Below are positions 13,275 to 47,310 of a stretch of 55,532 bases of DNA, piece after piece. The stretch's first letter is position 1. Each line of letters starts with the position of its first letter. This DNA is from Mesotaenium endlicherianum (taxonomy: Eukaryota), in contig WELA01003463.1 in the NCBI GenBank assembly GCA_009602735.1, positions 34,720-90,251 on the forward strand. The letters are read 5' to 3'. A model generated the notes under the pieces. That model saw only the letters and a list, made by a program, of their open reading frames with translations. It made no database searches and had not been told where the DNA came from. The translations under genes and the position numbers were made by a program.

Positions 13275-13277
13275 AGC

Positions 13278-23267: not shown

Positions 23268-24032
23268 TTATCCCCCCGACAGAAAAAGCGACGTCTCGGC
23301 GCGTCAAGTAAGATCTTACACATGTGGAGCAGACTAGTCAACAGCTTCAAGTCAGATGCCACACATGTGAAGAGGATTAGTCCAAGGCGCCAAGTCAGGT
23401 GCTACACATGTAAGGTGGACTAGGCAAGGTCGTGGGTGGTGTGACCTTATTGGCTAGCCTACTCCTTGATAAAGAAAATTGTATAAGTTGGCCAGAATCT
23501 GCCACAAATTCAAACATTCATAGCGTCCACAAAATTGCTTCAAATCTAAAAATTTGAGTGCCAGACGGACCGCGTCAAAGAATTTTACCGGGTCACCAAA
23601 TTTGAGAGCATTCAAATTCCTGGAGTGTCGTTGAGAGCTGAGAGAGTAGGCACTCCTCCAAGTCTGTGCAGAAACTTCTGAATATCATAAGTCCTTCTAT
23701 ACTTCTCCAAATGCTGCAAACTAAGTCTCAAACTGGGTGCTGTAAGATGTTTTACCAGAGTCTTGAGTTTCAGAGCATTCCAATTTCAAGGGAGGGCAGA
23801 ATGTCAGAAGGCATATTCTGCCCTAACAATGCCAGCAGCCTGACCCCCTTCTACTTAGAGCATCATATCTCTCTCACCAGTGCTTCAAATTCAACAAACT
23901 TGGACTCTAAACGACCGGCTACTCATGGACTACAGCCAAGTAAAATTTCAGGATTTATTATGCAAAGACCTATCACCAGTAGCAGTTTTAGTTTTCCATT
24001 CAGAAACTGCAAAAAGAGAAGAGTGTCTAATG

Positions 24033-27000: not shown

Positions 27001-27090
27001 TTCGCATAGTAATACCGTGCTTGGTGGCAAAATCTGCAGCAATGAAGTTGCCTTGAGCTCCGCTATCCACCAAGATGTGGACCTTCTAAG
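24033..27090 (-). pseudogene. Chromovirus C pol (protease, RT, integrase, chromodomain), disrupted; RNase H hidden by gap 25480-25967
   Basis: [67 protein letters not shown] (catalytic Asp apparently changed to Asn), QSDGQTER, YLGPFKI; chromodomain EYKVEDIV..YLIKWKGYPDSENSWV. In-frame stops at 24994 and 25246. Confidence 0.9.
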
Positions 27091-27214
27091 TTCTCTCCTC
27101 CAAGGTTACCTCTCAAACTCATTGGGGCTGGGACGTCGTCTTCAACGGGGGTCTCCACCTCACTTGTCTTGATGCCTTCTCGTGAAGTGGGTCTTGGGGT
27201 GGTAGGCTCCAGGC

Positions 27215-28493
27215 CTACCGGCGCTGTCCATTTTTTGACAACTTTTTGGGGCATGAGAGTGCACGATGGCCCTTTTCCTTGCAATAAAAGCATAGTCCAG
27301 CCGTCATGAGAGCTTCTTTTTCAGCCAGGGAGAGTCTTGCTTTCACTCCTTGCTGGTTTCCTGCATCATAAGTGTCATTGGAGGGTCTTCCACTCTTCCG
27401 GGCAGCCGCGGGGTCCCTTTTAAGAACTCCAATTTCCATGGGTGTGGGTCCAGATTCGGATGTGGAAGGGGTTGCATACACCCGCGTCGCCGGTACCCGT
27501 GAAGATGAAGGCACGGAGTGCTTGAAATCCAAGGTATCCACCTTGGGCCACTTCAATGAACTTTGAGAAGTCCGTCAAGTCGCGTAATTCCACTTCCTTT
27601 GCCACCTTGGGTTTGAGGCCAAAGATGTAGCGGTCAATCTTCTCCTTGAGAGACATGTTGGGGATCTCAAGAGTGAGGGCGTGAAATCTGGATGCATACT
27701 CTTGAACGGACGTCGTTTGCTTGAGATGGTGGAGCTTTCCTTGTTCAATCTTCTCCGCATTGATGGGCATGAATTGCTTTTTGAGGGCCTCACGAAAATC
27801 TGCCCATCTTGCATATGATGGTGGGGGCTCTTGGCCGAGCATGGGGTGCGCCATAGCTTGATATATAGCCGCTTGATAGTTACGCCACCATGATGTTGCT
27901 GCTCCTCTAAGTAAGGTAACGGCAAAGGGAACGTAGTCCTCCTCGGGTACTTCAAGGAATGCGAGGTACGTCTCCACTTGGTAGAGCCATAAATTCAGGT
28001 TGGCACCTTTCCCGGGGTTGAAAGTGTCGGGTTTGCCGGGCTTGATGAGTTTCCTTGCTCTCGTTGGCTCTTGTGGAGGCGCTTGAGCCGGGGCTGGATT
28101 TTGAGCATTGCTCGCAATAGGGGCAACCATGGCAGCCATAGCTTCTCTTGACGCTTGCACGGTTGCTTCATAGGTGGCCAAGCCCACTTGGTTGTGGACG
28201 GTCATTAGGAAGGCTGCCCACTCATTTGCGGGAACTCCTTGTGGTGGGGTCAACTTTGCTATAGCGGCTGCCACGGGATTTGACGGTGCTCCTCCTTGTG
28301 GTGCTTCTTGTTGTTGCAGATTTCCTTGAGTAGGCTCTCCCATCGGCGCTGGAGGAGGGTGTGCTCCTCCTTGTGGTGCTTCTTGTTGTTGCAGATTTTC
28401 TTGAGTGGGCTCTCCCATCGGCGCTGGAGGAGGGTGTCTTGGAGAGGAAGGGCTTCCTTCGAAAGCTTGCTGTTGGTCTTGAGGATCGGCCAT
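27215..28493 (-). pseudogene. Chromovirus C gag (one frameshift near 27556), with CCHC knuckle
   Basis: KPGKPDTF..WLYQVETY..LLRGAATSWW..LKQTTSVQEYASRF..YIFGLKP; CFYCKEKGHRALSC. A 75-bp tandem duplication (HPPPAPMGEPTQxNLQQQEAPQGGA x2) lies near the N-terminus. Confidence 0.88.
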
Positions 28494-28517
28494 CTTCTTG
28501 TGCTACCAAAGTGCCTA

Positions 28518-28529
28518 GATTTGATACCA
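28518..28529 (-). promoter_or_regulatory. tRNA-Met(i)-type primer-binding site of chromovirus C
   Basis: TGGTATCAAATC one base after the 5' LTR; the first 8 nt match the canonical TGGTATCAGAGC. Confidence 0.75.
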
Positions 28530-28530
28530 T

Positions 28531-29067
28531 TGTAGTGAAACAGATAGATAAAGTACTTAGTAAAACAGAATACTCTATTTATTCAAGACAAGGATCTTTG
28601 AATACAAGTGGTAGCTTCTTGAAAGAGAGATGGCTTCTTGATAGTTAATATATTTCTGGAATTTGGCAAGTACAAGAGTGATTCTGGAATGTCTTTCTAT
28701 GTTCTAGCTCTTGTTTATATACTTGTTACATAAGTAATTTCTAGGAAGGTGTATGTTGATGTGTTGGCACCCAACACATCCCAAAACTTGCCACCTCTTT
28801 CTAGAATAATGTACACATGTCCTTTTGACCTAAAAATGGCACATCTGACTTTTGCCACATGGAGTTCTTCTAGGTCTTTCCTCTAACTTCGAAAATGCCT
28901 NGTCTAGGTCTTTCCATTAACTTCGAAAATGCCTTGGAAGGTTCAAAGGACATGAACCAAGTCACTAGAGTACCTATTCACACTTGAATCCACACAATAC
29001 TACTCCGAATGTATTTGAAAACATTAAAATATATGCAAACTAATATATTATAACTCAAATCACTACA
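28531..29067 (-). repeat. 5' LTR of chromovirus C
   Basis: Matches 22773-23267 apart from substitutions, a short indel near the end and a duplication around the single N at 28901. Confidence 0.95.
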
Positions 29068-31184
29068 CTTTCGCTTAACTTCCACAAGTCACAGCTTACA
29101 AAACTCTGAAACTGCACATCTATGCTGGCCTGGTCGGAGCTCTTCACTCAACACCGCGCCTTAACAGCTCTTCACTGCTCTGCTGGGCTCACTCAGTTCT
29201 TCACTGACAGCTTTACTTGTTAAGATTACTCTTGTTATCAGCAATTCGACAATTGAGACTTTTGAGAACTTAGAAACTAACACAGTACTCACCATTTTAA
29301 GTGTCCCTCGCACGTTTGTGGCATTTGACCCAAATCTGTGCTAATCTCGTAACATATTCTATTCTGCAGCTCTCTACTTTCTACCAGCGAGATCCTCTCT
29401 CGGGAACTCTTGAGGTCTAACCTATGATACCCTTAGGAAGAAATCTTCCAACGTCGCTAGAAGCGTGGCGTCTCGGTTCTTCTATGGCCTTGGGAACTCC
29501 TTCTTCTTCGTGCTCCCTCCGCTTCTTCAACTTCCTTTGACAACAATGCGAGCAAGAATGAGGCAGCTACAGGCAGGACTCGTGCCTTTCACAGGCACCA
29601 CACATTATCCTCTCTTGAGAATGCCAGTGCTTAGTCACAGTGCTTAGCTTGCATGCCATCCTTACCTAGCAGCTCTCACACAGCTTAGGAGTTGTCATTC
29701 CGCATGCATGCATGCCTTGGGATTGTCGCGCGTGACTGGTTAGCCCTTCAGCTGACAATCATGCCTATGTGGCCGACTGACAGCGTTTAGAATGAACGCT
29801 CAAGCCGTGACTAGTCACCTGAGGGTCTTGGCCGAGGTGGCACACAACGCTTTTGCAACATCCCTGCTGTACTTGGCTTAGATAGCCAATTGATAAGTAC
29901 CTTTCCGGGCACTAGCTGGTTCCACTCCTAGCCTTTCGGCTGACTACTCCGTCCAAATCCCCATCCATCCCTGGGTGTGGGTTTGACGTGTCGTGACCAC
30001 TTTGACAGTGATAACGACTTTGACATGACCGCTGACTGAGATCACTCGGTCCTTTGGTCGGTTAGTCAACGCTGACTTCCCGTACCTGGGCGGCCGTGGC
30101 TTGCGCTGTACGTGCAGTACCGCCAAACGGGTAGCAGTCGCGATAGCGGTTGCACTTCGTGGACCAAACCTGATTTTTGGAAATAGGAGTACATCACTCT
30201 GAGGCTGTGCAAGTGGTGAAGCGGCCTAAATTGCTCAAACAATTTGCAAAACAAAAGTTTGGTCCCGCCAACGGTTATAAAAGTCGTCGACGGGCTTTGT
30301 CAATCCAATATGTATGTTAAAAGTTAACCACGTTTGAGAACGCGCATCCAACAGCTTTCATGAAATTTGTTTGTGATGTATTTTAGTGAAGGTTAGAATT
30401 AAAAGGGTGCAATTTCTTCAACAATTTGAGTGACCAATTTATCCCCCCCACAATCTGCCCCATGCAATAAATTAACAGTATTGACATCGAATAAACTAAT
30501 GATGTATGGGATAACCAAAAGTTTTGAATCTAAATTTTTTGAATTGCTGGTTGCACGTTCGAAGCAATTGCTAGAAAGAGCAATAAGAACCATAAGAGCA
30601 ATGAGAACCACATAAGATTACTTGGCAACATTCATTGATAATAACGAAGTAAATGCTTGGATATCCAAACGCAATTTCGTAGGGCTGGTGACCCATACGT
30701 ATGTATTGTTGAGAATTTTGATATTAGATGATGCAACAGTGCACCAACAATATGATTAATGAGGAAAATTGCTACTTTGTATGTCCTGTTGCATTTTGAC
30801 ATCACTGTTATGAGGTTGTAAAGTTTTAACCTTTTCTAGAATGGCAATTGTCAAGCTTCTCCCCATGAAGATGGAAACTTCTGTCATAAACTTTTAACAA
30901 GTAAGGTGACGATACCTAGACAAGCATCTCTCTTGAGGTGTTAGATGCGCAAAAACTTGAAAATTAGGTTTGCCTAACCTCAAAATGCGTACAAATTGGT
31001 ACCTGAGAAGAGAAGGCAGGGGTTCAGCAAGAGAGATGGCAGGGCATGGGGGGGAAACTCTCTTCTAGAATCCGGGTGAAATAGCGCCCAAAATTCAAAG
31101 TTTTTAATTAGCGCCCTGAAATCAAAACAACAGAATTAGTACAGTGAATTAGTGACCTTTAATCAGACAAATATGTACTAATAG

Positions 31185-31487
31185 TGTCGTGCCTAACAGT
31201 GTCGGTCCCTTGGCACGTGCGTAGCCTTCCAGCACGCGTGCCTTCGGCCTGGTTGATGTGTCGGTGGCCCTCCTCACGTGTGGCAGACATGGTTGATTGA
31301 CCTTTGCACGTGTGTCGATGACAAGCCTTACCAGGGTTAACCCATCCCTGGGTTCCTGAACTTGCACCATGCAGCCTTGACCAACACTCAGGGTGACGTT
31401 CTCTGTCACCCGGCTCTCACCGTCTGCTTATCCTAAGACTTTAGCAGAAAATTTAAAAATACTTGCCTTGCCTTAATTCCTCTTACA
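31185..31487 (-). repeat. Element B repeat X, terminal copy (303 bp)
   Basis: Near-identical to 36013-36315. Confidence 0.93.
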
Positions 31488-31823
31488 AGGACGGAAGTCT
31501 CTTACTTCCACATAGGCTTTATGCCTTAAGGTTCTTGGGTTCACAGGTGAGCAAATTGTAGTTTGCAGAAATCACACTCTAAGCAGCTTGACATGCAACG
31601 TCAGATTCAAAGAAAATCGCCCTTCAGGCTTTTCGCTTAACTTCCACAAGTCAGCTTACAAAACTCTGAAACTTCGTCTATGCCTGGGTCAAGCTCTTCA
31701 CTGCCAGGCTGGGCTCACTCAGTTCTTCACTGAGAGCTTTATCTGTCAATACTACTCTCTCTCTTCGAGATGCGAATGCGACTTCTGAGAAGTTGGAAAT
31801 CAACACACAACTCACCATTTTAA

Positions 31824-34800
31824 CACTAGATTTACTGCCTATAGGACCAAAACCGACACCACAATAGCCTATCTTTGAATGCTCATACTAAAATGAGTGC
31901 TTATGTGGTACATAAGAGCCATATATATACTGAATCTACTTTGAGTAAGCAATCTGGCAATGTACTTTTTCCAATTTTTCCGGGATATTTTAGTGTACGT
32001 TTTTGTACTTCAAGGAAAACACACGTGTGAGGTCCCATAAGTACATTTCTTCTCAGCACAATATCCGGAAAGGTACAACTTATTTCTAGATCCTGATTTT
32101 TTCCAGCATTTATCCTGATGTAAGGAGGACAGTGCACTTTACAGATATGCAATTTATTTAGTATCCTAGCTGCTACACCAGCCCAATGTTTGGGACCCAA
32201 ATTGACACCAAGTTTTTTGGTCATTGGTCCCATAAGGAATCTAGGAAATGCATCATGCAGATTTATTGTTTGGTGCATAACTTTTACAATTCTTGATGGA
32301 AATTATTGAAACAAGTTCAGGCATGCTTAGAATACCTTACACAAGCACTATGAAACATGAAAACACCAAAAATATGTAAAGCAAAAATTATGAGTCTTGT
32401 CATGTATGGCTCCATGGCCGACGCGTCGGAAATCTGGTATATGGCAGATGGTGTGAGGTAAAAAAATATTAGTCTTAGAGTTATGCACCTTTCATCAATG
32501 CTACTGTTTAGGAGCACCAGTGGGCAACCTCTTCCTACCACAATCTAGATGCTCTATGTTTCTGGTAGTGTGAAAAATTTCAAAGCAAGGAGTGGGATGT
32601 AAGGCAACATTACAAGGTATACACATGAATTGGCACCTCTTCTTCCGTGCTGCAGCTCCTAAGTCAAAGTACTTAGCACTACACACCACGTAGCTTGTCC
32701 TTTCTCCTTTCTTCACCTTGTCAAGAAAGTGCCTCCCAGTCCACCTTTGCTCTTCAGCAGCTCCTGCTGCACTTGACCTGGTCTGCCTGTCGCGAGGATG
32801 TACCCACTCCGACATCTCCCTCACTAGTTGCAACATGAACAAGTATCTGTCAGCACCAGGGTGGGCCAGCTCATACAATATGTATGCATTAGCAATGGCA
32901 CCATCAAATAAGCCCCAATACAGGCGGTGCCACCACTTCCTAGCTACTTGCTCAGTCTCCACAGAGTAGTTGTCTCTCAAGCATAACTTGTCAAATTGAT
33001 CGACCGCGTCTTTGTACATGTTATAGTGCTTCACAATCTCTGGTGCAGGTATAGTCTTAGTCTCTCCTCCCTTCTGTCTCCTCTCAACCTCAACTACAGT
33101 AAGACCTTGACAGTTAGACAAAAGATACGCAGGCTTCTTGTCTTGCCAAACTACAGCTACGTGTTCAGGCCATTCTGACACGAGCGCTGTGAATGACCCT
33201 TGCTCCGCCTCTTTCTCTTCTGCAGGTATGTCTAAGACCAGCTGCTTAGTAGGATAGTGCATTCTATTTACAACTGTGCCTGTTGCTCCATGGCCAAGCT
33301 CTGACAGTGCTCTCACAAGTACAGGACTTGTGAAGCCTCTATCTAATACAAAGCTGTAAGTCTGACCCTCTGGCAAAGTGCTGACCATCTCCATAATAAC
33401 AGTGGTATTTTTGCCAGGTCTCTTGACCTTGTCAAATACTACAAAGTCCCAGCAGTAATATGTGACACTATCAACCAGTGTGAACAACTCAATGCCAAAT
33501 TTGTGAGGCTTCTTAGGACAATACACCCGGACTGGATACTGTCTATTTCCAGTTGGAATAAGTCTCTCATCAATTGTCATGTGCACACCTGGATTATAGT
33601 GCTCCTTGAATGCTCTTTAGAGTAGATCTATGAAGGGTTGACACTACCAGAGCTTATACTCTCCAGACTTAGGAGGAAATACATCTCTGCCTGCATTAGA
33701 AATAATATGCATGTTTGCTTTTATCTGGACCCACCTATCTCTAGACATGTATTTGCCATAGGCAGGAAACTTTACAGGACCAAAATTGTCATTCTTCCAG
33801 TACATGGTGTACCTAGGCAAGGAATTCAATGCCATAGCAATACACAAGCCATGCCACATGATGAGCTCACTAGTGGTCAGCTGGTTCCATTGCTTTGCAC
33901 CTTCACTATGTGCATATGCATTGGTAACAGAAACCATGGAGTCATACCAGTCTACACCAATGAGAAGGCTCAAAACAGCAAAAGGGCTGAAGTTGTGAAA
34001 GTGCCTTGTGCTCACTCTGGCCAGGCCTGTGGCCAGAGTGCTGACAGGCTTCACCAGCCAAGGTGGAACTTCACCTCTAGCAGCAGGCCTCCAGGAGTAC
34101 TCCTCTCTGTTGGCAGGCTCCTCAACTTCTTCTTCTTCAGCAGCAGCAGGCACCATTGGCTCTCCTTCAGACTCCAGCTCCGTGTCTGAGCTGTACTCCT
34201 CTTCATCTGAGTGCCTGTTCTTCTTCTTGCTGTAGCCCCTCTTTGCCCTCCTCTTAGCAGTCTCCCTTGCCACTACCACCCTGTTCCTTCTCTCTTCCCT
34301 GTTAGCAGGCACAGACATGTCTGGTCCTGTCTGTTTTGATGGTCTCCCTCTCTTTCGTGTTGACTCTATCGGTTCTAAGCCTGTTTTCGACTCTTCCTCT
34401 GTGTCTATTGTGTCTGCTACTGGTGTGGGGGTGTCTTTCGGTGGTGTGGGAGTGTCTTCTGGTGGTGTGGGAGTGTCTTCAGGTTTGGGGGGGGTGTTTA
34501 CAATGCTAGGAGTAACTTCAATCACATGAGAAGCAGGAAGCTGTGAAAGTGGGTCCGAAGAGGCCTCAACTCTAACAACTCCCTCATATGGGCAAAACCA
34601 ACGAAATTCGGGGATAGAAGGCATGTATTGTAGTATTTGGCTGCGTCCCCATGTTTTGTACTCTCCATCGTAGCCAAAATAGATCTTAAACTTGGTTTCT
34701 TTGGTCTTATGCACCTCTTCCTCTAATATTCCGACCAAAAAAAACTCTTTGTAATGCTTTCCAAACTCTTGTGCTGCCCAAGTTTCACCCCAGATCTTAC

Positions 34801-35165
34801 TAGGTGTCAGTATCTTAGTGCCTACAGCTACCGGGGGGCCTGTAGACGAAGAAGCAATGTCAGCCATGGCTTCTATAGCATGCAAAGCAAAAGAAATGAC
34901 AGACAGGAAGAGGCCTGTTCGAATGTCAAAATCGAAACAGAAGGTGACCTCTTCGTGGCCGGCAAACTTACATAACTTCGTCATATATTGGCCGTTATGG
35001 CTAAAACTAATTTGCTGGAGGGGTTTGAGTTATGACACATCCAATGAGCCTATTTTTAGACAATTCTGATTAAAAAAAAAGTAGGCTAAGGGGGTGTAGA
35101 ATTTTGCCTAGTTATGGGACATAAATTGGTTCAGAACCAAAATAGGACCCACAGTATAGCTAGTG
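31824..35165 (-). mobile_element. piggyBac-superfamily DNA transposon (3342 bp)
   Basis: TTAA TSD at 31820-31823 and 35166-35169 (a single TTAA in the uninterrupted Y copy near 45523). Imperfect 14-bp TIRs CACTAGATTTACTG / CACTAGCTATACTG. Transposase ORF inside. Confidence 0.93.
32501..34867 (-). pseudogene. piggyBac transposase, one reading frame with two premature stops (33644-33646, 33617-33619)
   Basis: MSRDRWVQIK, TIDERLIP (D1), PKKPHKFGI, LDRGFTS (D2), YNMYKDAVDQFD (D3), KWWHRLYW, C-terminal Cys/His domain CQFMCIPCNVALHPTPCFEIFH. The start Met is a best guess. Confidence 0.9.
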
Positions 35166-36012
35166 TTAAGGCTGCTTCACACACACACTTGTGGCGTTTG
35201 GCTGAGTCCGTGCTAATCTCCTAGCAGATTCTATTCTCCAGTTCTCCTTCTTCAACCGTGAAATTCCCTCTTGGGAACTCCTACAATCCTAACTTATCTA
35301 CGATACACAGAAGAATCTTCAGCGTCGTCAGAAGCGTGGGGCTTTGGCCCTCCAGTGGCCTTGGGAACTCCTTCTTCTCTCTCCTTCTGCTTCTTGGCAA
35401 AGGTGCATGAGAGTGAATGACATGTCTCAGGCAAGATTCGTGCCTTTGGCAGGCACCACACAGCGTCATCTTTCGAGAATGCCGTGCTTAGTCACACAAC
35501 TTAGTTGCATGTCGCCTCTGCCTAGCCATGCTCAACTCAAACTCGTAGTCACTCAGCATGCATGCACACCTTGTGACTGTCGCGCGTGGCTGCTTAGCTT
35601 CTCAACTGGCAGTCACGCCTAATTGGCTCATGGCTAAGAATTCCTGAGCGGCGTGCAAGCAAATGCCACTTGCTCAAGTTTTCCCAACGGGGCGGCCGTA
35701 ACCTATCTTGGCATTGCAGCCATGACCTGGCTTAATCTGCCAGTCACACAGTACCTGACCTGGTACTTGCTGGGCGGCTCATTGCTGATCCCCAGCTCCT
35801 AGCCTCGCGGCTGTCTTGTCAAAACCTCCCCCATCCCTGGGTGTGGGGCACACTGACATTGACCCCTTGCCAGTGGTCTTGACGCCGCCATAACCGCTGA
35901 CTGCGATGTAATCAGTCAAGTGGTCGGTGAGTCAATGTTGACTTTCAGCACTAGGTGGCCGTAGCTTGCGCTGCGCGTGCGACACCGTCAAACGGATAAT
36001 AGTCGCGACAGC

Positions 36013-36315
36013 TGTCGTGCCTAACAGTGTTGATCCCTTGGCACGTGCGTAGCCTTCCAGCACGCGTGCCTTCGGCCTGGTTGATGTGTCTGTGGCCCTC
36101 CTCACGTGTGGCATACATGGTTGATCGACCTTTGCACGTATGTCGGTGACAAGCCTTACCAGGGTTAACCCATCCCTGGGTTCCTGAACTTGCACCATGC
36201 AGCCTTGACCATCACTCAAGGTGACGTTCTCTGTCACCCGGCTCTCACCATCTGCTTATCCTAAGACTTTAGCAAAAAATTTAAAAATACTTGCCTTGCC
36301 TTAATTCCTCTTACA
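36013..36315 (-). repeat. Element B repeat X, internal copy directly after the PPT
   Basis: Matches 31185-31487; separated from Y by GC (36011-36012). Confidence 0.93.
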
Positions 36316-36327
36316 CCCCTCCCTTTC
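36316..36327 (-). promoter_or_regulatory. Polypurine tract of element B
   Basis: GAAAGGGAGGGG on the - strand, followed by TGTAAG. Confidence 0.85.
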
Positions 36328-38089
36328 AGCTGAGGCGTCCCTGCCTTTCCTGTTGAAAGCTATTATTTTCCAGCCCTGCGGCTAGGAGTTTTAGGAAGGC
36401 ATCAGGACATTCCCATCGTCTTGCCATAGTTTCTTCCTCGCCAATGCAGAAAGTGTGCCAACGGGCACCACATTTATCGCAAGTTACCATTGCTTCCTGA
36501 TTGTCCAGCACTTTGCAGCTGGCACAAGGCGTGGCCGGCACCAATTCCTCGGGCACAACCTTAACTGTGGGATCAATATTCGGCAAATGGCATAGCGAGC
36601 AATTCTGCACGTGGTCTCTTATGGTTTTACCATCAGAACCCTCCAGTTCTAACACACCATTGTCAAACGCATGTTTCACGCGCAAGATCACTGCACCTGA
36701 ACTGGTGTCGATGGTGGTCTTGGTCTGGCGCTTGCGGTAGACAAAGTCTCCTTCTTGAATCTGCGTCATCTGCAGGCGGTAGCTCCCGTCTCGCGTCCTG
36801 GCGTAACGTTGCGTATCTCTTTTCTGTGCAATTTTCAGATTGTATAGTGCAGCCAGTATCATGCGCTCAAATAACGCCTTACGGCGCACCATCACTTTTA
36901 ACAGTTCATCAGGGCTGTCCAGGTCTTTCACCTGTTCAATCTCCTGCTTGATGCTGCTGGGCATTACTGGACTTCTGCCAAACAGTATCTGATATGGCGA
37001 GTAATTTGCCAAGGCAGCCTGCTTGCTAAATCTGTAACCCGTAACCAGCCATGGCAGGGCTAGATCCCAGTCACGCTTGTCATGCTCAAGGCAAAACTTG
37101 CGCAAAGCAGACTTAATGGTTTGCACCATCCTTTCTGCCAGACCATCTGCTTGCGGATGATCTCTAGACGTAGTGCGATGATCGATGAAGCATCTGTCCA
37201 AGAGTTTCTGAAAAGACCCTTGGAACTCAGACCCTTGGTCTGTCAGCACTTCTGCTGGAGCTCCATGACGCACAATCACACCATTGAGGAACGCTTCCGC
37301 GGTCCCTAGACTCTCCTTAGCAGTCAGAGGGACAACCTCTATCCACTTAGAGAAATGCTCAATCATTACCATGATATACTTGTTACCTCGCTTAGACAGC
37401 GGTAGCTCACCTGCAAGATCGCAGCTCCAACGGTAGCCTAGGCCCATGATTGGCAAAGGTTGCAAGTGTGGATGTTGCTGTGTAAAACCAGCCTTGACGC
37501 AATCACAGCTTTGGCAGGCCTTGATCACATCTTCACACTGCTGCTTCATGCCCCTCCACCAGTAAGACAGCTCCAAAAGACTATATGTCTTCTCGACACC
37601 ATAGTGTCCAGTGTTCTCGTGCATTTCTTGCACAAGGGCTCGTCTCCTGATGGGTTCTGGCACTAACTTCTCCTGACCAGTTTCTTCAATTTTGAAGAGG
37701 TTGTTACATTTCCAGCAAAACTTTTTAGCTCGATGGCTTACCTGGTCCTTCTCCTTCACTAATAGTCCTTCCAAGTGAGTTCCCGTCTTCAGCCAGTGCA
37801 TAGTAGCTTGATCTTTCCAGATCTCTGGACTGAACAGGGGTAGAGGCTCAGCTTCACCTGATGCTACTATTCTAGCCATTTCGGCTAGGCACGCCACCAA
37901 CTCTGCTGGGCTGCTTGGGTCTTTGTCCTCTCGAGCTCCTGTTCTGTCGTCTGAAGATGGGTCTGGGTTCCTGCTGAGTCCATCGGCGTCGTTGTTGAGC
38001 ACTCCAGCTCTGTGCACCACCGTCATTTGGTACTCTTGCAGCTTAAGAGCCCAGCGAGCCAACTTACCAGTGAGGTCTCCATTCTTCAT
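36326..38089 (-). CDS. Element B: end of RNase H, DDE integrase and C-terminal PHD finger
   Basis: LARWALKLQEY..ADGLSR; HENTGHYG..CQSC zinc-binding motif; WSCDLAG, LTDQGSEF, DGLAERM; CASC..CDKC..HTFC..WECPD (last Cys lost by a frameshift relative to A). Confidence 0.9.
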   Translation of the reverse strand: MKNGDLTGKLARWALKLQEYQMTVVHRAGVLNNDADGLSRNPDPSSDDRTGAREDKDPSSPAELVACLAEMARIVASGEAEPLPLFSPEIWKDQATMHWLKTGTHLEGLLVKEKDQVSHRAKKFCWKCNNLFKIEETGQEKLVPEPIRRRALVQEMHENTGHYGVEKTYSLLELSYWWRGMKQQCEDVIKACQSCDCVKAGFTQQHPHLQPLPIMGLGYRWSCDLAGELPLSKRGNKYIMVMIEHFSKWIEVVPLTAKESLGTAEAFLNGVIVRHGAPAEVLTDQGSEFQGSFQKLLDRCFIDHRTTSRDHPQADGLAERMVQTIKSALRKFCLEHDKRDWDLALPWLVTGYRFSKQAALANYSPYQILFGRSPVMPSSIKQEIEQVKDLDSPDELLKVMVRRKALFERMILAALYNLKIAQKRDTQRYARTRDGSYRLQMTQIQEGDFVYRKRQTKTTIDTSSGAVILRVKHAFDNGVLELEGSDGKTIRDHVQNCSLCHLPNIDPTVKVVPEELVPATPCASCKVLDNQEAMVTCDKCGARWHTFCIGEEETMARRWECPDAFLKLLAAGLENNSFQQERQGRLS

Positions 38090-38137
38090 CAGCCATAGTA
38101 ATGGTGAGTAATCCGTGATCAGTGTGAAGGGTCTTCC

Positions 38138-39157
38138 CTACAGATACTCTCTGAAGTGTGTGACCGCCCAAACCACTGCCAGCAGCTCTCCTTCATAGGA
38201 CGAGTAGTTGCTCTCCGCTCGATTGTTAGAGCGTGAGGCATAGGCAATGACATACTCCTCTCTAGGGCTTGTGGCCTGAGTGAGTACTGCGCCAATTCCC
38301 ACACGACTCCAGTCAGTGTGCAGATTGAACGGTTTGGAGTAGTCAGGCGTTCGCAAGACTGGGGCTGTTACCAGCCGCTCCTTAAGCTCGTTCATGGCTT
38401 TCTCCTGAGCTTCTGTCCACACAAAAGGTACATCCTTTTTCAGGAGTTCCGTCAAGGGTTTAGCAATTCTGCTATAACCCTTCACAAACTTACGATAGTA
38501 TCCGCTTAGCTCTAACAGAGCTTTCAGCTTAGACACATTCGCAGGTGCAGGTATCTTGTAAATAGCCTCAGTCTTCACAGCCTGAGGGGACATAGCATTG
38601 TTCCCAATCTCATGTCCTAGGTAAGGCACGTGTGCCTCAAAGGCACACGTCCATTGCCAAAGTTCCTTTTGAGCCCAGAAAGCAGTCTTACCTCGATCTT
38701 TTGTTTTCACAGGGATCTGGTTGAAGCCTTGGCGCAGATCGATAATGCTGAACACCTTTCCGGTGGTGGCAATTGCAAAGATCCTTTCCGGCGTAGGCAT
38801 CACATAGCTATCTGGCTCCGTGTAGAGATTCAGTCGCCTGTAATCTCCACACATACGAGTGGCAGTGTAATTGCCGGCCTTGTCCTTTTTAGCGGCTACT
38901 ACTGTAGGAGCCCCATGTACTGAGGTAGATTTTTCAATCATGCGGAGCTTATGCAGCTCTTCACAAGTTTTCTCCACACAGTCCCATTCTGTCTGACTGA
39001 GCTTATGCGGCCCTAGTCTGACTGGGTTATCAGTAGTTAGTGTGATCTCACACACACTGGCAGTGGTTCTACCAATCTCCTCCTGAGTGAAGGCAAATAC
39101 CTTGCGGTGTTTCTTCAGCAACCTTTCTACTTGTGCTCTCTGCTGGGCTGAGACCAT
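38138..39157 (-). pseudogene. Element B RT/RNase H with the YxDD core deleted
   Basis: RMCGDYRRLN, IDLRQGFNQI, KTAFW, then jumps to FEAHVPYLGH; about 65 aa present in A are missing. RNase H LHTDWS..IAYASR..ELLAVVW. Confidence 0.9.
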
Positions 39158-39220
39158 TTTCCCAATGGCAAAAGTCTCAGTTTCAGGTTGCTTCTCCCCA
39201 ACAAAGGCATCCAGTAGTTG

Positions 39221-42200
39221 CTACTCCTTAGGTGCAGGTGGGGGCTTCCCGCCCTCATCCTGGCCCTCAGGCTTTTCTGCCTGATTTTGGCTCTCAGGCT
39301 TTTCTGCCTGATTCTTAGGAGGTGGGGTAGCAGGCTTTGCAGCTTGCTCCTCCGTTGCCATAAGTTCGGCAGCCTGTTTCTTAGGCTTTTTACCTTTCCC
39401 AATGACGCGTCGCCTCTCCTGCGGTGAGGGGTATGTCAGGCGCCTCCGGATGGGCTGCCTCAAAAACATTTCCTCGTCGACTGCAGTCCAACTGGTCCCG
39501 GTTCCTCCTTCTTCACGTGGCCGAGGTTGGTTTGCCATTGGAAAACCTGCGGGATCTGTCCTAGGGCTGATCGCCCAGCCCCATTCTTGCTCAATAATAG
39601 CCATGCGGGCGACGGTCGTGCCATACTCCTCCCTTGCGGGTGGTGTGACCATCCATGCCTGCGCCAATGTTTGCGGCCTTTGAGGTGCCGCTAGTTGTGC
39701 GAGAAAGGCATCATCTGCTGCGGTCAAGCGGCTGATGGTGTTTCTCAGATCCATCAGTTCCCATCCTGGGATTGCAGGTATCATGGGAGCAGGCTCCTCC
39801 GACCTCTGTATCCTAAGATGTGATAGTTGCAACAAGGGCGTGTTCATGCCTGGCGGCACACTAATGCCCAATGCCATTGCCCTGCGAACCAAATCGTCCT
39901 CTCCCTCTCTCTGCAGAATATCCCGCAGAGGCGGAGGAGGTGGGGCTGTGGTTCCTCGCGGAATGCCCTCTCTCTCTCTGAGCCTTCCCCTTATGTTTGA
40001 AATATCGCTCTAGCATCCTCCTAAAAGATGCGTTACCCTCACGGGCCACCTTCCTTGGTCTGCTTGCGCGACTTTTGGGCTTTCCTTGTGCTGTCTCCAC
40101 TTTAGCAGTGCAGGCAGTCACCTCCTGCCATTGCGGTGGTTGTGCGGTTGACTTGGGTTCTGCTACTGGAAGACTGGCAAAAGGAGAACTGGATGTTGGC
40201 GACCTTAATTCTTCATAAAGGTCTGCCGGGCTTGGCCCCATCAGGTGGTCAGCCACCCAGTCGTCTGTCCTCAGCTCCTGTAAGTCAAGCAGATCCAACT
40301 CTGGCGTGGGAAAACGTGGAATCTCTCCCCTAATGTCCCCTTCATTGTTGAGTGATGGAGACTCCAACTCCGAGAGGCCTTCCATCTCTGCATCCTCTTC
40401 CTCCTCCGGCTTCTCTATTCCAGGAGGCGGTAATTCTTCATCCCCTCCTGTGTTGAGCCTCGCCATGTTGATGATAGCTGACTGTAGAACGAGAGCTGCT
40501 TTCGCCACTTTTTCTTCCTTGAGTCGAGGGGCGTCTGCTTCCAGCAACTGCGCCATGATTTGCCTGGTGATCGACTCAGCTGTGCTGCCAACTATGTCTT
40601 GTGGTTGCCCTTTGGCCTCTGGCCCTGGGCTCATCAGAGCAAGTGTGGCGGGCAATCTCTTGGCCGTCGCCTTCTTGTGTTCTTCAAAAATCACCTCCAG
40701 GCAAATGGTCTTTCCAGACCCTCCAGAATTTCCTGAATTCTGACTGCATTCTTCGGCCCATTCGCCAATATTGCACTGGCGTTCTTCATATTTTGATGTT
40801 ACTGCGTCTGGGGATGGGCTCCCAAAGACTTGGTCTGGAGCCATGTTTCGTAACTCAGAACTGGTACATTCTTCCCATTCCGGCATCCTCCCCAATACTT
40901 GGCTGGAGCGTTCTGCAGATGCTGGGACCTCCTGTGATTTGCTGACTGCAGCGCTCACCAAAGGGTTTGCTGCACCAGTTGCCTGGTCTTCCATGGTTAC
41001 GTCTCCTCGCAGCCTCCGCAGCTCTCTTTCCAGAGGGTCGTGTAGAGTCGCCATCCGATTGTCAATTCGCGTCAATAAGTCTTGACACCTGGTCAGCTCC
41101 ACCACTCTGGTTTCTCTGAGTGTTTCATCTTGGTCAGCCTCAGCTGCGTCTCTTTCAACAGCATATTCTTTTTGTCGCTGATACGCTTCCCTGATAGCTC
41201 TTTGATCAGAGGTTGGCACCACATGGACTCCAATCGTTACCGGCCTCGGCCTGGGCATAGGCTTGTCAGAGAACGTCATCTGTTGCCAAGTCATAATCGT
41301 CTCTACCAACCATGTCATGGAGTGATGCCCAATCATATTGTCGAATATCTTCCCAGCGTTGTCCTGTCCCACCATTGCAACAATTTCTTGTGCAATGGAG
41401 TTGGGTACCCCCAGGCACCTTCCCTTCTCTTCAGCTGTCGGCTCTCTCCACTGAGCTTCTCTGTTGTGCACATCTTTGACCATTCCTGGTCCTCCATTCA
41501 CGAAAGCGCGTGATCCTGGGTATGCTGTGAAGGTGGGCAGCACCACCCTCGGCCGGCCTGGCTCGTTGACGACGTACTGTGGGTAGGAATCCCTCCTGAT
41601 CACTGGCTTGGTTTCCACCATCAGTGCTTCTCCCACAGATACTGCCGTTGGCGTGCGCCGCGTAATCTCCTCCATCTTCCTCAGGATTTCAATGGACATG
41701 CCGTTGGTCCAGAATAGTCTGGCCCGGTGTGAGAGTCCTCCGTGCCTGGCGTCGTTGATCAATACATGATGACCCAGGGTGGAGTCAAAGACGAGCCATT
41801 GATCTCCTGGCTTCATCTGGTTGTAATCCATCCCTAGATGTACATTCTCAATCACAAACACTGGTGGGTAGAGATGCTGGCGTTCCCGCAGCATACTGAT
41901 GATCTTCACCATCCTTCCCCAGTGTTGTGCTCGCGGGTCATTGAATCCCCTCCTGTTCCCAACTTGCGAGAAAGGTTGACAAGGGAATCCCGCAAAAATC
42001 CAGTCAATCGTGTAACCATACAGGTCCTCAAACTTCACATCGAGAATGTTTTCTCCAGCAAGACGCACCACACTAGTGGGCACCAATGCCTTGAAATGGT
42101 ACATTTGCCGCATCTGACTCATGACCTCCTCAAATGCCTTAAAAACATTCTCATCATTGTCCACATACAGCACTTTGGATACCTGGATACCTCGCTGAAT

Positions 42201-45035
42201 CGGTGCGATGGTTCCAGTACCAAGTCCGGCGAACAATTCCAGCACTACTACTCCTCTCCTGCAAAAAGGATCTTCCATCCTCACAATGCCTTGCGGCAAT
42301 GGGTCTACTCCAGGCATCAAATTGGCAGCAGTCTTAACTGGATAAGGAACTGGCAGCAGCTCTTGCGGGCTACGGTCCCTGTTACTCACAGCTTCTAGTT
42401 GCTCCATAATCCAAGGTTGCCAAACCAAGGGAGTCGGCATGTTGATGCTGGTGTAGATCTTCTCTTCGCGTTGCATGATGAGGTCATAATGGTCTGGATA
42501 CTGGTCATTCACATAGCAGTCTAGCAGTCCGTAGTTTGCTTCTCCCGAGCAAACCATTTTTACAGGAATTTCTCCTGTCGGCTGCCGATCTGTCGACTGG
42601 TAAGTCACCCTCTGCTTCCGCAGGTCGATGACCATACCCAGGGGAATCAGAGCTTCTGTCCCCAATAGAACATCATAGTTTTCTGCCTCTGTCACCGTAC
42701 ACTCTATGAACAGTGACGCTTCCTCAGGTTTCCCCAAGTTTACTGTGATTTCCACAGGCTTGCGGGTGATTCCACAAGACTTTGAAATCTGCCCAGATGC
42801 AGTCCTCAACTGGAAAGGACTTTCTTTCAGGTCCCTTGCCGTCAATCCCAGAGCTTTCACAGCTCGCTTTCCCAAGATTACTGGCTGTGCGCCAGTGTCC
42901 AATAGGATATTGGGAGCGGCCCAGTTGTTAAACGTCAAAACTCTATCCTTGTTCTGCACTCTCACAGTGCTGAAATTAGTAGGCAGCGAAGCGCTGTTCG
43001 CGCCTTCCTCAGCTAGGTCCAGCTGCTGTCCGGCTTCCTCAATCGTGAAAGGATATGTAAGACGCAGATCAGCGAGTGAAAGACAAGGAATGTGCTGAAT
43101 CCGGTGTTCCACCAGAGCCTTCAGCTTTTCCAGCGAAAAACTAAATGTCTTGCGTGGCCCAGGCTTGGCTTGTCGTAGCTGCGCAATCTCGTTCTCATCG
43201 AGAGTGATCCGAAAGGTCTGAGGAAGCTTCCCAGCATTCCTTGGAACCAGACGATCATGATCTGCGCGCTCCGCAGCCGTTGCAGCCACGGCCTTCTCAG
43301 GCGTCAGCTTCTCGCCTTTGCAGACGGTCTTTTCGGCCACATCTGCATCATAATAGACATTAGGCACATTTAGTCTTGCAAATTGAGCTTTCAACTCTGC
43401 AATTTCTGCACTCATAGCATCATACTTCTGATTACCCTTCCGGTTACCAGAGTTATCTCTCTCCCGTTTCTTACCCTCATCCGCCTCTTTCGTGGCAGCA
43501 TTAGCCCATGGTGGTTTCAGATTTGGGTTCTTGGACCAACACTCATCTTCTGAGTGTCCCTTTTTACTGCAATGTGCGCATACCTGCGCCTTGCTAGCAG
43601 ACAATTGCTTAGCATCCGAGTACGGACAATCTCTCTTCTGATGTCCTGATTTCCCGCAATTCCAACAGCCCTCTGCTGTCTCAGCAGTGTTGGCGTGCTT
43701 AGCAAACCTATTGAAAGACCCGCTCTTTTTCTTAAATTGAAAATTAGAGCTATTGGCCTTGGGCTGAAAGGATTCCTCCCTTCTCTCAGGAGCCATAAGC
43801 GTCCTAGAAGCCTCCTTGTACCAGACTTTACCTTCCTCAACATTCCGTGCTATTTCAGCAGCCTCGTCGATGTTCCAGTCGATTCCGCGTTTTGCAGATA
43901 GGTGCGGCCTGACCTCCCAATCTGTATCTTTACCCGGACACAATAAGAATTTGTCAGCCACAATCCTAGGCTCATAGATTCCTGCCTTCTTGGCAAGGTC
44001 TACCAATCTGGATTTGACCTCCATCACTGTCTCGTTCTTCTGACGGACAAAATGCACATAGCGGTGCACTTTAAGACTGCGATCCTCTGGGAATGTTGCT
44101 TCAAGCAACTTGAAGAAACGACGCAGACAGTGCTCAGAGTCTAACTGGTCATCCCCAGCCTCCATATCCCTACGGCAACTAGCCAACGCTTGCGCATGGC
44201 TTGCTTCCGTGGTGACACTATCACCATGCTGCCCTGTAAAAGGTGCAGCTCTGCGTGTTACTCGTTCCTGAGCATTAGCAATCTTTTCAGACAATTCTGC
44301 ACACACTTTTCGCAATTCTGCGACAGATCCAGCATCATCATCTCGAGTAGCCGCTCGCTGCTGACCCTCGGTGAGTTGCTTCATGGCATCTGTTAATTCT
44401 TGTGTTAGTGCAGCTAAGTTTACGCTCTCAACAGGTGCAGCAGGTATCGCTCTTCCTGATGACAAAGCGGACAGGCGGGCTTTCGCAGCCTCTTTCTGGA
44501 TTTTCAAATCCCTCGCCTTCTTTTGCTCGTCAAACGCCCATTCCTGGGTAAGGTTCTCATTCTTCCGAAATTGGCGATACAGGAACAAGGCATCCTTGTC
44601 CAAGTACTGAACCAAGCTTATAAAAGCGACTGACTGAGTGTAAGAAGAATCCTTTCGGATTTTCTCAAAGAAGTCAGCCTAATAGATCTCATCAAACTCT
44701 TCGAAAGTTAGACTATTTCCACTAGTTCGTCCACTAAAACACTTTGTAGACAGCTTGAACTTATCCTTATCATCACCAGTCATTTCGAGTGGTGACCAAG
44801 ACTCACTATCTTTATCCCACACGTCGTGCTCTCTGCCCGAATTGGGTACAAAAGCTCGCGTGTTATACGGATTCTCACCGTTCGTGGCAGTATGGCGAGA
44901 CTCGTCTCTCGACGGTTGCTCACTCCACAGGTTATCCGTGTGCTCTGATGTCTCACTTTCTCGTGGACTCTGGCTTGAATCAGAACCTTTTGCAGGCTCC
45001 ACAGGGTAGTAGAGTCTTCCATTCCTCAACTGCAT
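39221..45035 (-). pseudogene. Element B polyprotein N-terminal part: Gag (2 CCHC), aspartic protease, C5-DNMT, uncharacterised region; includes the 1584-aa open frame 39861-44615
   Basis: MQLRNGR start (45035); CWNCGKSGHQKRDC and CAHCSKKGHSEDEC; LLDTGA..DVLLG; DNMT motifs. Breaks near 44679 and 39880. Confidence 0.9.
41285..42260 (-). other. C5 cytosine DNA methyltransferase domain in frame within the element B polyprotein
   Basis: VLELFAGLGTG (I), LYVD (II), IFAGFPCQPFS (IV, catalytic PC), FVIENV (VI), HRARLFW (VIII), REPTAEEKGRCLG (IX-like), IFDNMI (X; GN in A). Confidence 0.92.
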
Positions 45036-45144
45036 GTACAGTTGAATTTCTCCGGGTCCCCTTCCAGGTTGAGCACCGGCAGCCCTCACAGGCCTCAATC
45101 CCCAATTTGCTTGGAAATTTCTATTCACTTGAACCACGGAACTG

Positions 45145-45158
45145 AAGTTCTCAGAAGT
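45145..45158 (-). promoter_or_regulatory. Putative self-priming primer-binding site of element B
   Basis: Exact inverted repeat of 45484-45497 inside the adjacent Y repeat; identical to the A site. Confidence 0.72.
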
Positions 45159-46367
45159 AGGACAAAAGTCTCTTACTTCCACATAGGCTTTATGCCTTAA
45201 GGTTCTTGGGTTCACAGATGAGCAAATTGTAGTTTGCAGAAATCACACGCTAAGCAGCTTGACATGCAACGTCAGATTCAGAGAAAATTGCCCTTCAGGC
45301 TTTTCGCTTAACTCCCACAAGTCAGCTTACAAAACTCTGAAACTTCGTCTATGCTGGCCTGGGTCAAGCTCTTCACTTAACACCGCGTCTTAACAGCTCT
45401 TCACTGCCAGGCTGGGCTCACTCAGTTCTTCACTGAGAGCTTTATCTGTCAATACTACTCTCTCTTTTCGAGATGCGAATGCGACTTCTGAGAACTTGGA
45501 AATCAACACACAACTCACCATTTTAAGGCTGCTTCACACACACACTTGTGGCGTTCGGCTGACTCCGTGCTAATCTCCTAGCAGATTCTATTCTGCAGTT
45601 CTCCTTCTTCAACCGTGAGATTCCCTCTTGGGAACTCCTACAATGCTAACTTATCTATGATACACAGAAGAATCTTTAGCGTCCTCAGAAGCGTGGGGCT
45701 TTGGCCCTCCAATGGCCTTGGGAACTCCTTCTTCTCTTTCCTTCTGCTTCTTGGCAAAGGTGCGTGAGAGTGAATGACATGTCTCAGGCAAGATTCGTGC
45801 CTTTCGCAGGCACCACACAGCGTCATCTTTCGAGAATGCCGTGCTTAGTCACACAACTTAGCTGCATGTCGCCTCTGCCTAGCCATGCTCAACTCAAACT
45901 CGTAGTCACTCAGCATGCATGCACACCTTGTGACTGTCGCGCGTGGCTGCTTAGCTTCTCAGCTGGCAGTCACGCCTAATTAGCTCATGGCTAAGAATTC
46001 CTGAGCGGCGTGCAAGCAAATGCCACTTGCTCAAGTTTTCCCAATCGGGCGGCCATAACCTTTCTTGGCGTTGCAGCCATGACCTGGCTTAATCTGCCAG
46101 TCACACCGTACCTGACCTGGTACTTGCTGGGCGGCTCATTGCTGATCCTCAGCTCCTAGCCTCGCGGCTGTCTTGTCAAAACCTCCCCCATACCTGGGTG
46201 TGGGGCACACTGACGTTGACCCCTTGCCAGTGGTCTTGACGCCGCCATAACCGCTGACTGCGATGTAATCAGTCAAGTGGTCGGTGAGTCAATGTTGGCT
46301 TTCAGCACTAGGTGGCCGTAGCTTGCGCTGCACGTGCGACACCGTCAAACGGATAATAGTCGCGACA
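45159..46367 (-). repeat. Element B repeat Y, 5' copy (1209 bp, uninterrupted)
   Basis: Matches the split copy at 31488-36010; no X copy lies next to it. Confidence 0.93.
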
Positions 46368-47310
46368 ATAGCGCCCTGAAATCAAAACTTTGGAAAATTT
46401 AATGACAAGATTCAAAAATTTAAGGCTCCGAATTCAAAGTCTCGGAAAATTAGCGCCCATTTCCCCCCCCATGTGGCAGGAATATGCGAAGAGAAATGGC
46501 AGGGTACGTTAAAGTGGCAGGGGTACGTGAAGAGAGATGGCGGAAACACGTTCGCAGCAGTGGTGCTTTATGATGATCTACGACATCCCCAGGCATCCTC
46601 CGGTATTTCCTCCGGGTGGGGGTTCGTAGAGTGCAAATGCAACTATTTGCCTGTGGAATGACTGAATAACGGCGGCGCAGCGCCTGATATAGGCTGCTGG
46701 CGCAGTGCCTGCGCTAGCCACAGGCAGTTGATTGGCTGCGCCACTTCCGCGAGGAAGTGGAGGATTCACGATAAGTCTTTTCTTATCAAACTATATTCTG
46801 AATATTTTCATGTACAAAATACTATTATTTCAACAAGTGATTCAGGGCGTATAAGGACGTCATTGGATTTGACATCTCACGAACGTTATTGACAAAGCTG
46901 TTTAGTGACGTCGTGAACCGGCACGATGGGATTGCGACAAAGCGACAAAAAAGCGCTTGAAGGAAGTAGGAAGGGTTTGGATTCTGGAAGCGTTCTCAAC
47001 TGATTCTTGACAAATCTCGTCCAGAACTCTTCCAGACAGACTTTTTTGATACAGGTGCATGAGGAGTAATTGCATACTCTTGTAGGCGCTCCTAGCTCGT
47101 CCTAGCAACACTAAGAGGTGGGGAGATCTTTAGAACGACGTGAGGGAAGGGGTGGAGCACGACGTTCACCCTCGGAAGTCTGAGTTGCTGGTGCTCGCCT
47201 TGTAAAATAACTGAAAAATACCACGCAGATTGCCGATCAGCTGATTTAGGGAGAGCAATCGTCATGAATGGTATCTCTAGATCGTAGGAGCAAGTCATCA
47301 GAGGAAAGGA

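What the first reader, a model, noticed from the sequence alone, without database searches (positions are those of the whole stretch)
31185..46367. DDE-integrase retrotransposon with split (circularly permuted) LTRs: Y-internal-X-Y-X
Seen: in sense (-) orientation element B reads TSD-Y(46367-45159)-PBS-polyprotein-PPT-X(36315-36013)-GC-Y(36010-31488)-X(31487-31185)-TSD. Element A has the same layout with its own TSD and a diverged X (221 vs 303 bp), so it is a family property. Known: an A-coding-B-A-B layout is typical of tyrosine-recombinase retroelements (PAT/TOC1/Ngaro type), whereas Ty3/gypsy elements with DDE integrases have two identical LTRs. This element has a gypsy RT/RNase H, a DDE integrase, TG..CA ends and a 4-bp TSD, and I see no recombinase motif. 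Inference: the true LTR is X+Y, the linear cDNA XY-internal-XY is closed into a 2-LTR circle, and integrase opens it at the X/Y boundary of the 5' LTR. That yields exactly the observed order and is the one opening that keeps R at both ends of the next transcript. I do not know of this being described for a gypsy element, and LTR finders would mis-delimit it.
Basis: partly seen in the sequence, partly recalled or inferred. Interest (0 to 1): 0.93.

Follow-up and report, generated by a model that had tools for sequence, protein, structure and literature searches.

The report
Gypsy retrotransposon opened inside its LTR
This plant-lineage jumping gene and its relatives begin and end in the middle of their end repeat, likely because the DNA copy joins its two ends and the integrase then cuts a conserved palindrome inside the repeat, a layout noted once in an alga but, in my searches, never explained.

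Summary
Observation confirmed. Elements B and A read TSD-Y-internal-X-spacer-Y-X-TSD with 4-bp TSDs, encode Ty3/gypsy RT and a DDE integrase, and gave no tyrosine-recombinase hit. The layout is not new: de Mendoza 2018 notes it in a figure legend for KnitGypsy-Dnmt3 (Klebsormidium), which also carries a DNA methylase; I found no mechanism there. This scan also noted it before on other DNA.

What this work adds:
- A self-priming PBS and the PPT define the cDNA as XY-internal-XY, with ends that are not TG..CA.
- The palindrome GACAGCTGTC at the X/Y boundary is conserved across relatives at 37-50% integrase identity.
- The Y|X joint is where the cDNA ends meet, and it varies between copies (5 forms in 15).
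- X1 and X2 are re-copied from one template.

Best model: the ends join into a two-LTR circle and integrase cuts the 5'-LTR palindrome (0.55). Joining after integration is the main rival (0.25). Unexplained: 9 of 9 two-LTR copies with a visible 5' end were opened at the 5' site, none at the identical 3' site. No circle was observed directly.

The parts
46368..46371 (-). Element B left target-site duplication (CTAT)
45159..46367 (-). B Y1: begins TGTCG; holds distal U3, R and U5 of the true LTR (U3/R/U5 assignment inferred)
45484..45497 (-). Predicted self-primer (14 nt, exact reverse complement of the PBS), about 25 nt below a TTAAAA box; inferred transcript start
45145..45158 (-). Self-priming type PBS directly after Y1
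39224..45242 (-). gag (CCHC) - protease - C5 DNA methylase - low-complexity region; broken by a stop near 44679 and a frameshift near 39861-40009
39221..39223 (-). In-frame TAG (TAG CAA CTA) before RT, shared with A and most relatives; likely programmed read-through
38138..39220 (-). RT-RNase H; B lacks the YxDD segment (A has YIDD) and has a stop at 38138-38140
36326..38137 (-). End of RNase H, integrase (H2C2, D240-D300-E335) and C-terminal PHD finger
36316..36327 (-). Polypurine tract
36013..36315 (-). B X1: proximal U3 of the true LTR, ends CACGACA
36006..36017 (.). Internal palindrome CGACA-GC-TGTCG: inferred uncut integrase attachment junction
   Evidence: conserved in relatives
31488..36010 (-). 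B Y2 (1181 bp without the nested transposon)
31824..35165 (-). Nested piggyBac-like DNA transposon (DDE_Tnp_1_7, TTAA duplication); not part of the element
31487..31488 (-). Y2|X2 joint: U5 end joined bluntly to the PPT-defined end
31185..31487 (-). B X2, ends CACGACA
31181..31184 (-). Element B right target-site duplication (CTAT)
11836..30145 (-). Element A, same layout: Y1 30145-22628, X1 13497-13278, GCT, Y2 13274-12057, X2 12056-11836; TSD CCGC
22773..29067 (-). Ordinary gypsy element with two TG..CA LTRs, TGGTATCA-type PBS and 5-bp TSD nested in A Y1; internal control

Best explanation
These are Ty3/gypsy elements with a DDE integrase whose inserted copies start and stop at a conserved palindrome inside the LTR; likely the cDNA (X-Y-internal-X-Y) joins its two ends into a two-LTR circle, and integrase would cut that palindrome in the 5' LTR and insert there. 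Steps: (1, inferred) the transcript starts in Y1 and ends in Y2; its first 12-15 nt pair with the PBS and prime reverse transcription, as in Tf1. (2, inferred from PBS and PPT positions) the cDNA is XY-internal-XY, with ends that lack TG..CA. (3, product shown, timing inferred) the two ends are joined imprecisely, giving the Y|X joint. (4, inferred) integrase cuts CA^GC-TG on both strands, giving recessed CA-3'OH ends with 2-nt 5' overhangs, the normal processed substrate; strand transfer gives the 4-bp TSD and loses the spacer. (5) Only opening at the 5' LTR leaves R at both ends of the next transcript, so a bias for that site would be favoured; how the bias works is untested (the 5' LTR becomes double-stranded first, and its site lies nearer the joint). 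Y-int-X copies would come from one-LTR circles, cuts at both sites, or X-X deletion.
For: Termini with TSD at the palindrome halves: 2 of 2 window copies exact; of 11 distinct relatives with both ends visible, 5 exact, 4 with one transition, 2 none. 53 contigs of run X1 leave the element at 31185 into unlike flanks (agreement 0.36). GACAG[C/T]TGTC lies downstream of IN in 6 of 12 distant loci (0.05 expected) and GACAGCTGTC in 5 of 7 clade-like loci (the other two have under 520 bp downstream). The cDNA ends differ by family (X starts TGTAAG, ATACATG, AGTTG, CACTTG). The PBS/primer pair covaries over four families, 12-15 nt, below a TATA-like box. The Y|X joint has 5 forms in 15 distinct copies while PPT|X starts ATACATG in all 15 (one with an extra A); run X1 shows exact, +1 and +2 nt forms. 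X1/X2 of one copy are closer (0.070) than permuted pairs (0.105; 0 of 20000), with no X1 or X2 paralogue groups. Poly(A) reads in the presumed sense direction fall from depth 22 to 0 inside Y before the joint (run X24). Foamy-virus IN, the second-closest solved relative, cuts a palindromic junction this way in vitro (PMC1180852 section 8).
Against: No circle or cDNA was observed. A circle has two identical sites, yet 9 of 9 two-LTR copies with a visible 5' end are Y-int-X-Y-X and none Y-X-Y-int-X (0.5^9 = 0.002 if symmetric). In L021/L022 the Y end is joined to internal fragments with no X in the 1.3 kb that follow, which fits repair after integration better. For B the primer:PBS helix is not the minimum-energy fold once the leader is included (pairing probability 0.002-0.012, 6-7 kcal above MFE), though it is for L025 (0.96). 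Exact primer matches were short or non-significant in 5 of 16 decayed Y copies. The tree used to ask whether joint forms are inherited is poorly resolved: of three sister pairs with support above 0.94, two share a form and one differs. RNA evidence is 42 and 14 reads, strandedness assumed; run X23 has one presumed-sense read reaching the Y end.
Confidence: 0.55

Rival explanations
1. Join after integration: integrase cuts the 5' palindrome on the linear cDNA, holds the short X piece and the Y start in one intasome, inserts both, and host repair then joins the free U5 end to the free PPT end. Same product, no circle.
For: Explains the one-sided opening through timing, since the 5' LTR is completed first (established RT pathway; inference). 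Imprecise joints and the filler-capture case L021/L022 without a nearby X fit double-strand-break repair.
Against: Needs a chromosome break at every insertion; most joints lose only 0-2 nt (13 or 14 of 15), and both window joints are exact. No direct test here.
Confidence: 0.25
2. RT makes the joint itself: at the end of plus-strand synthesis it jumps from the U5 end to the PPT end using 1-7 nt of microhomology and runs on through X to the palindrome, much as proposed for PAT-type elements; integrase still cuts the palindrome.
For: The commonest joint form in the moss-like family (7 of 15) is the one that shares AT between the two ends; in L081/L082 the X start resembles the Y-end/PBS start over 7 nt.
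Against: The window family has no such overlap and its joints are blunt; several forms add a base.
Confidence: 0.13
3. The Y-X tail is inherited through a read-through RNA, or the element is integrated by a tyrosine recombinase as in PAT/Ngaro/VIPER (own or borrowed).
For: The A-B-A-B layout is the one that defines those YR groups (PMC4157794, PMC6681497 passages).
Against: No YR hit in 62 six-frame ORFs of A and B plus the long ORFs, nor in 16 of 27 ORFs of the intact relative L081, whose two long ORFs fill its interior. TG..CA ends with 4-bp TSDs and an intact DDE triad. X1/X2 are homogenised.
Confidence: 0.04
4. Assembly artefact or a one-off rearrangement of ordinary LTR elements.
For: The window holds N gaps and nested repeats.
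Against: Two copies 20-23% apart with their own TSDs, 18 distinct X-Y-X ends in other assemblies, the joint in two DNA runs, and a published case.
Confidence: 0.01

Closest known systems
KnitGypsy-Dnmt3 of Klebsormidium nitens (de Mendoza et al. 2018, PMC5890265; I read passages, sections 9 and 10, and searched 3 supplementary files; Fig. 4c itself not seen)
   Same: Gypsy domains, C5 methylase in the polyprotein, repeats arranged as in DIRS (A-coding-B-A-B). A K. nitens integrase (P0024) falls inside the palindrome-bearing clade (support 0.879).
   Different: The text I read gives no termini, TSD, priming mode, palindrome or mechanism. I could not link P0024 to a methylase-bearing copy, nor place the methylase as Dnmt3-like (best PDB hits are weak: HaeIII methylase 3e-5).
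Ty3/gypsy (Metaviridae) elements, including self-priming Tf1/Tcn1 types (PMC6317226 and PMC4600332, passages)
   Same: PR-RT-RH-IN order, best solved relatives Ty3 RT (9e-61) and Ty3 IN (3e-25), DDE triad, TG..CA ends, 4-bp TSD, PBS complementary to the inferred 5' end.
   Different: Genomic copies lack two identical terminal LTRs; the TG..CA ends lie inside the RT-defined LTR; no chromodomain, a PHD finger instead; methylase and a read-through stop before RT.
PAT, TOC, Ngaro, VIPER split-direct-repeat YR retrotransposons (PMC4157794, PMC6681497, passages)
   Same: A1-coding-B1-A2-B2 layout.
   Different: They encode a tyrosine recombinase; none was found here, and a DDE integrase with TSDs was.
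Prototype foamy virus integrase cleaving 2-LTR circle junctions (Delelis et al. 2005, PMC1180852; abstract and section 8)
   Same: A DDE integrase cuts a palindrome after CA on both strands and leaves 2-nt 5' overhangs.
   Different: There the palindrome is the end-to-end joint and the cut restores the normal linear DNA; here it lies inside U3, away from the joint, so the product is permuted.

Membership tests
Ty3/gypsy LTR retrotransposon | PR-RT-RNase H-IN order with gypsy-type RT | tested here: met
   Pfam order; best PDB hit Ty3 RT
Ty3/gypsy LTR retrotransposon | DDE integrase with H2C2 finger | tested here: met
   rve and Integrase_H2C2; D240, D300, E335; Ty3 IN best PDB hit
Ty3/gypsy LTR retrotransposon | TG..CA termini and 4-6 bp TSD | tested here: met
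Ty3/gypsy LTR retrotransposon | Two full direct LTRs at the ends, bounded by PBS and PPT | tested here: not met
   0 of 13 copies with a visible 5' end start with X
PAT/Ngaro/VIPER YR retrotransposons | A1-B1-A2-B2 split direct repeats | tested here: met
PAT/Ngaro/VIPER YR retrotransposons | Tyrosine recombinase | tested here: not met
   No Pfam YR hit; a 466-aa region after the methylase stays unassigned but is absent from relatives with the same layout
KnitGypsy-Dnmt3 group | Gypsy domains with DIRS-like repeat layout | tested here: met
KnitGypsy-Dnmt3 group | Dnmt3-related methylase in the polyprotein | tested here: inconclusive
   C5 methylase present (4e-15); Dnmt3 affinity not tested by tree; PDB hits weak; no K. 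nitens protein among 3 hits
KnitGypsy-Dnmt3 group | Common descent with the K. nitens elements | tested here: inconclusive
   K. nitens P0024 nests in the clade but its element was not available
Chromoviruses (Tcn1/Tf1-sushi) | Self-priming PBS | tested here: met
   covarying 12-15 nt complement in four families; sequence-level only, fold of B unfavourable
Chromoviruses (Tcn1/Tf1-sushi) | Chromodomain after integrase | tested here: not met
   PHD finger instead; 27.5% IN identity to the nested ordinary element
Phygy / Selgy (REXdb) | Clade membership by RT/IN phylogeny | not testable with these tools
   No reference sequences were available

The most novel reading that the evidence does not exclude
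A green-lineage-wide clade of Ty3/gypsy elements has moved its integrase attachment sites from the cDNA ends to a palindrome inside U3, so that the two-LTR circle, a dead end for other LTR elements, is its obligatory integration precursor, and it opens only one of two identical sites.
Probability: 0.5. Interest if true: 0.88.

Novelty: new variant of a known kind. Interest (0 to 1): 0.72.

Why it matters
Whether two-LTR circles can be true integration precursors for DDE integrases is an old, contested question, argued so far from in vitro cleavage and drug-reversal work in retroviruses. This clade would be a natural case where a joined-end product is in every replicating copy, and the conserved 10-bp palindrome makes the step directly testable. 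It would also show that the PAT/Ngaro repeat layout arose without a tyrosine recombinase. In practice, LTR finders that need two terminal LTRs with a TSD would mis-delimit or miss a family that is highly repeated in this host and has relatives from liverworts to chlorophytes.

Tried and rejected
No whole host genome was held, so copy forms could not be counted genome-wide. No indexed RNA holder was listed; this is no evidence either way. A fold-back joint 31488/31785 in run X23 (4 reads, 2 starts) resembles a self-primed product but lies 4 nt from the predicted point and could be a library artefact or a genomic variant; not used. Viral contigs gave no relative. The protein atlas gave no hit for the region after the methylase. 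The first tree script returned nothing; one search is a FastTree on 58 IN cores from 28 of 80 loci, 25 proteins and the window, rooted on the nested element, with no named lineage references. L081 is a contig with overlapping ends, read as a collapsed repeat, not as a circle. Rejected: a tRNA PBS at the TGG 23 nt after Y1 (the self-complement abuts Y1 exactly; no tRNA search was run); Y-X as a separate solo insertion beside Y-int-X (the spacer is conserved, no TSD there, ages match). Dropped as duplicates of one insertion: L026, L016, L018, L023, L024, L029, L058, L070, L079, L011, L052, L068, L074. 12 of 80 loci had under 250 bp after IN and were uninformative. The 1988 TOC1 paper was not held; from memory it discussed a circular intermediate for split LTRs, unverified. 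Paper searches for a mechanism found none: (listings only, apart from the papers cited). Subscription journals and Repbase Reports are not searched.
Full report
Observation. The self-comparison and junction read-outs confirm both elements. On the minus strand B is CTAT, Y1 (46367-45159), internal region, PPT, X1 (36315-36013), GC, Y2 (36010-31488, interrupted by a piggyBac-like transposon), X2 (31487-31185), CTAT. A has the same order with TSD CCGC and a 3-nt spacer. X and Y pairs have matching divergence within each element (B 3.6 and 3.0%, A 5.9 and 4.5%) while A and B differ by 20-23%. Both copies are decayed; B lacks the RT catalytic segment. An ordinary two-LTR gypsy element nested in A, with a 5-bp TSD, serves as a control. 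The host was not identified; a PMR5N-domain gene and named integrase relatives in Calypogeia, Riccia, Klebsormidium, Closterium and Chromochloris point to the green lineage.

Coding content. The order is gag with CCHC, protease, C5 methylase, RT, RNase H, integrase, PHD. The integrase has D240, D300, E335; the best solved relatives are Ty3 integrase, then foamy-virus integrase, and Ty3 RT. No tyrosine recombinase hit came from 62 six-frame ORFs of A and B (85 and 95 aa or longer), the long ORFs, or 16 of the 27 ORFs of the intact relative L081.

Where reverse transcription puts the ends. X starts right after the PPT. The 14 nt right after Y1 are the exact reverse complement of 14 nt inside Y (45497-45484), about 25 nt below TTAAAA. 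This is the self-priming arrangement described for Tf1-type elements (PMC4600332 and PMC6317226, passages). The pair changes together in four families (12-15 nt), with a compensatory change between L081 and L003. Against: in 5 of 16 decayed Y copies the longest exact match was 8-9 nt and not significant, and in B the helix is not the favoured fold once the leader is included; in L025 it is (0.96). The cDNA is therefore inferred to be XY-internal-XY. In both window copies Y2|X2 is the exact blunt meeting of the two inferred ends.

Relatives. One search found 519 related stretches and kept the best 80; all 80 were examined. 27 loci (18 distinct insertions) end X-Y-X and 23 (19 distinct) end in X alone; 6 were truncated or interrupted within X or Y, 12 had too little sequence after integrase, and 12 belonged to other families. 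Of 11 distinct insertions with both ends visible, 7 are Y-int-X-Y-X and 4 Y-int-X; none starts with X or Y-X-Y. Their 4-bp TSDs are exact in 5, one transition off in 4, absent in 2. The X/Y boundary is CA-NN-TG throughout, and GACAG[C/T]TGTC appears after integrase in 6 of the 12 other-family loci (0.05 expected) and in 5 of 7 clade-like loci, often inside a longer palindrome (20 bp in L084). The RT-defined ends are not conserved. The palindrome-bearing loci, the window copies and a K. nitens integrase fall in one clade (support 0.879, no lineage references). Relatives also carry the methylase, in three loci between RNase H and integrase.

The joint. In 15 distinct copies of one family the joint has 5 forms (7, 4, 2, 1, 1), whereas the PPT side is constant. 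Contigs of run X1 show exact, +1 and +2 nt forms in the host family (two rows are marked 'between: not known'). X1 and X2 of one copy are closer than permuted pairs (0.070 versus 0.105, 0 of 20000), and X1-X1, X2-X2 and X1-X2 distances between copies are equal (0.108), so both come from one template. The tree test for inheritance of joint forms was inconclusive. In run X24 presumed-sense poly(A) reads fall from depth 22 to 0 inside Y before the joint (42 reads laid); this is weak support that the joint is not carried in RNA. At 31185, 53 contigs of run X1 leave into unlike flanks, so the X end is the family's true terminus.

Mechanism. Cutting CA-GC-TG after CA on both strands gives the recessed CA ends with 2-nt 5' overhangs that DDE integrases use; foamy-virus integrase does this to its own palindromic junction in vitro (PMC1180852 section 8). 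With joined cDNA ends, a cut at the 5'-LTR palindrome gives exactly the observed order, TSD and lost spacer. I put joining before integration at 0.55, after at 0.25 and by an RT jump at 0.13; all three share the internal cut (about 0.9 together). The weak point of the circle is symmetry: 9 of 9 two-LTR copies were opened at the 5' site. Only that product can replicate, so a bias would be selected, but its basis is untested.

What is known. PMC5890265 states in the Fig. 4c legend that KnitGypsy-Dnmt3 has DIRS-type repeats with gypsy domains, and defines that arrangement elsewhere as A-coding-B-A-B. Sections 9 and 10 give no mechanism; a search of 3 supplementary files found the terms only in one file, with reviewer exchanges; figures were not visible. 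The name appears in that paper alone; a 2026 preprint mentions streptophyte Gypsy-DNMT3 only in passing (passages). Searches found no account of the mechanism; subscription journals are not covered. Earlier notes of this scan report the same layout in two other plant windows and a bivalve; these are unchecked AI notes, read after my own reading was set, and not counted as support.

Verdict. Real, clade-wide, and a new variant of Ty3/gypsy. The layout has one prior mention in print; the internal palindrome, self-priming, variable joint and one-sided opening were not found in print in my searches. Interest 0.72.

Noticed in passing
window 39221-39223 (-); L081 3489-3491; L001, L003, L037, L044, L075, L078, L080: An in-frame TAG just before RT is conserved (11 of 17 loci examined plus A, B and L081), mostly followed by CAR-YY, the read-through context recalled from tobacco mosaic virus (no paper found). 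It would separate gag-PR-methylase from RT-RH-IN-PHD. One family has TAG TTG instead.
   Followed up: partly
L060, L066, L077: The methylase sits between RNase H and integrase rather than between protease and RT, so it moved or was gained twice within the clade.
   Followed up: no
L021 3986-5156, L022: The Y2 end is joined to an inverted piece of the element's own methylase region and an RT piece instead of X2.
   Followed up: partly
L028, L040, L064: The element ends at an inner copy of the CACGACA sub-repeat, 15 bp short; L040 has an exact TSD there, suggesting a second usable cut site.
   Followed up: no
window 31824-35165 (-): piggyBac-like transposon with terminal inverted repeats and TTAA duplication, inserted at the TATA-like box of Y2.
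   Followed up: partly
window 31080-31180 and 46372-46430: B sits inside another repeat with TTTCAGGGCGCTA units; run X1 shows further insertions in similar sequence, a possible target preference.
   Followed up: no
window 39224-41270 (-): About 600 low-complexity codons between methylase and RT are shared by A and B (75% DNA identity) but absent from relatives; no family or atlas hit.
   Followed up: partly
L081-L087: Contigs of this eukaryotic clade lie in prokaryote genome bins, probably as contamination.
   Followed up: no
L091 7034, L092 7580: The same palindrome core occurs after integrases only 26-27% identical to the query; may be chance or a wider spread.
   Followed up: no
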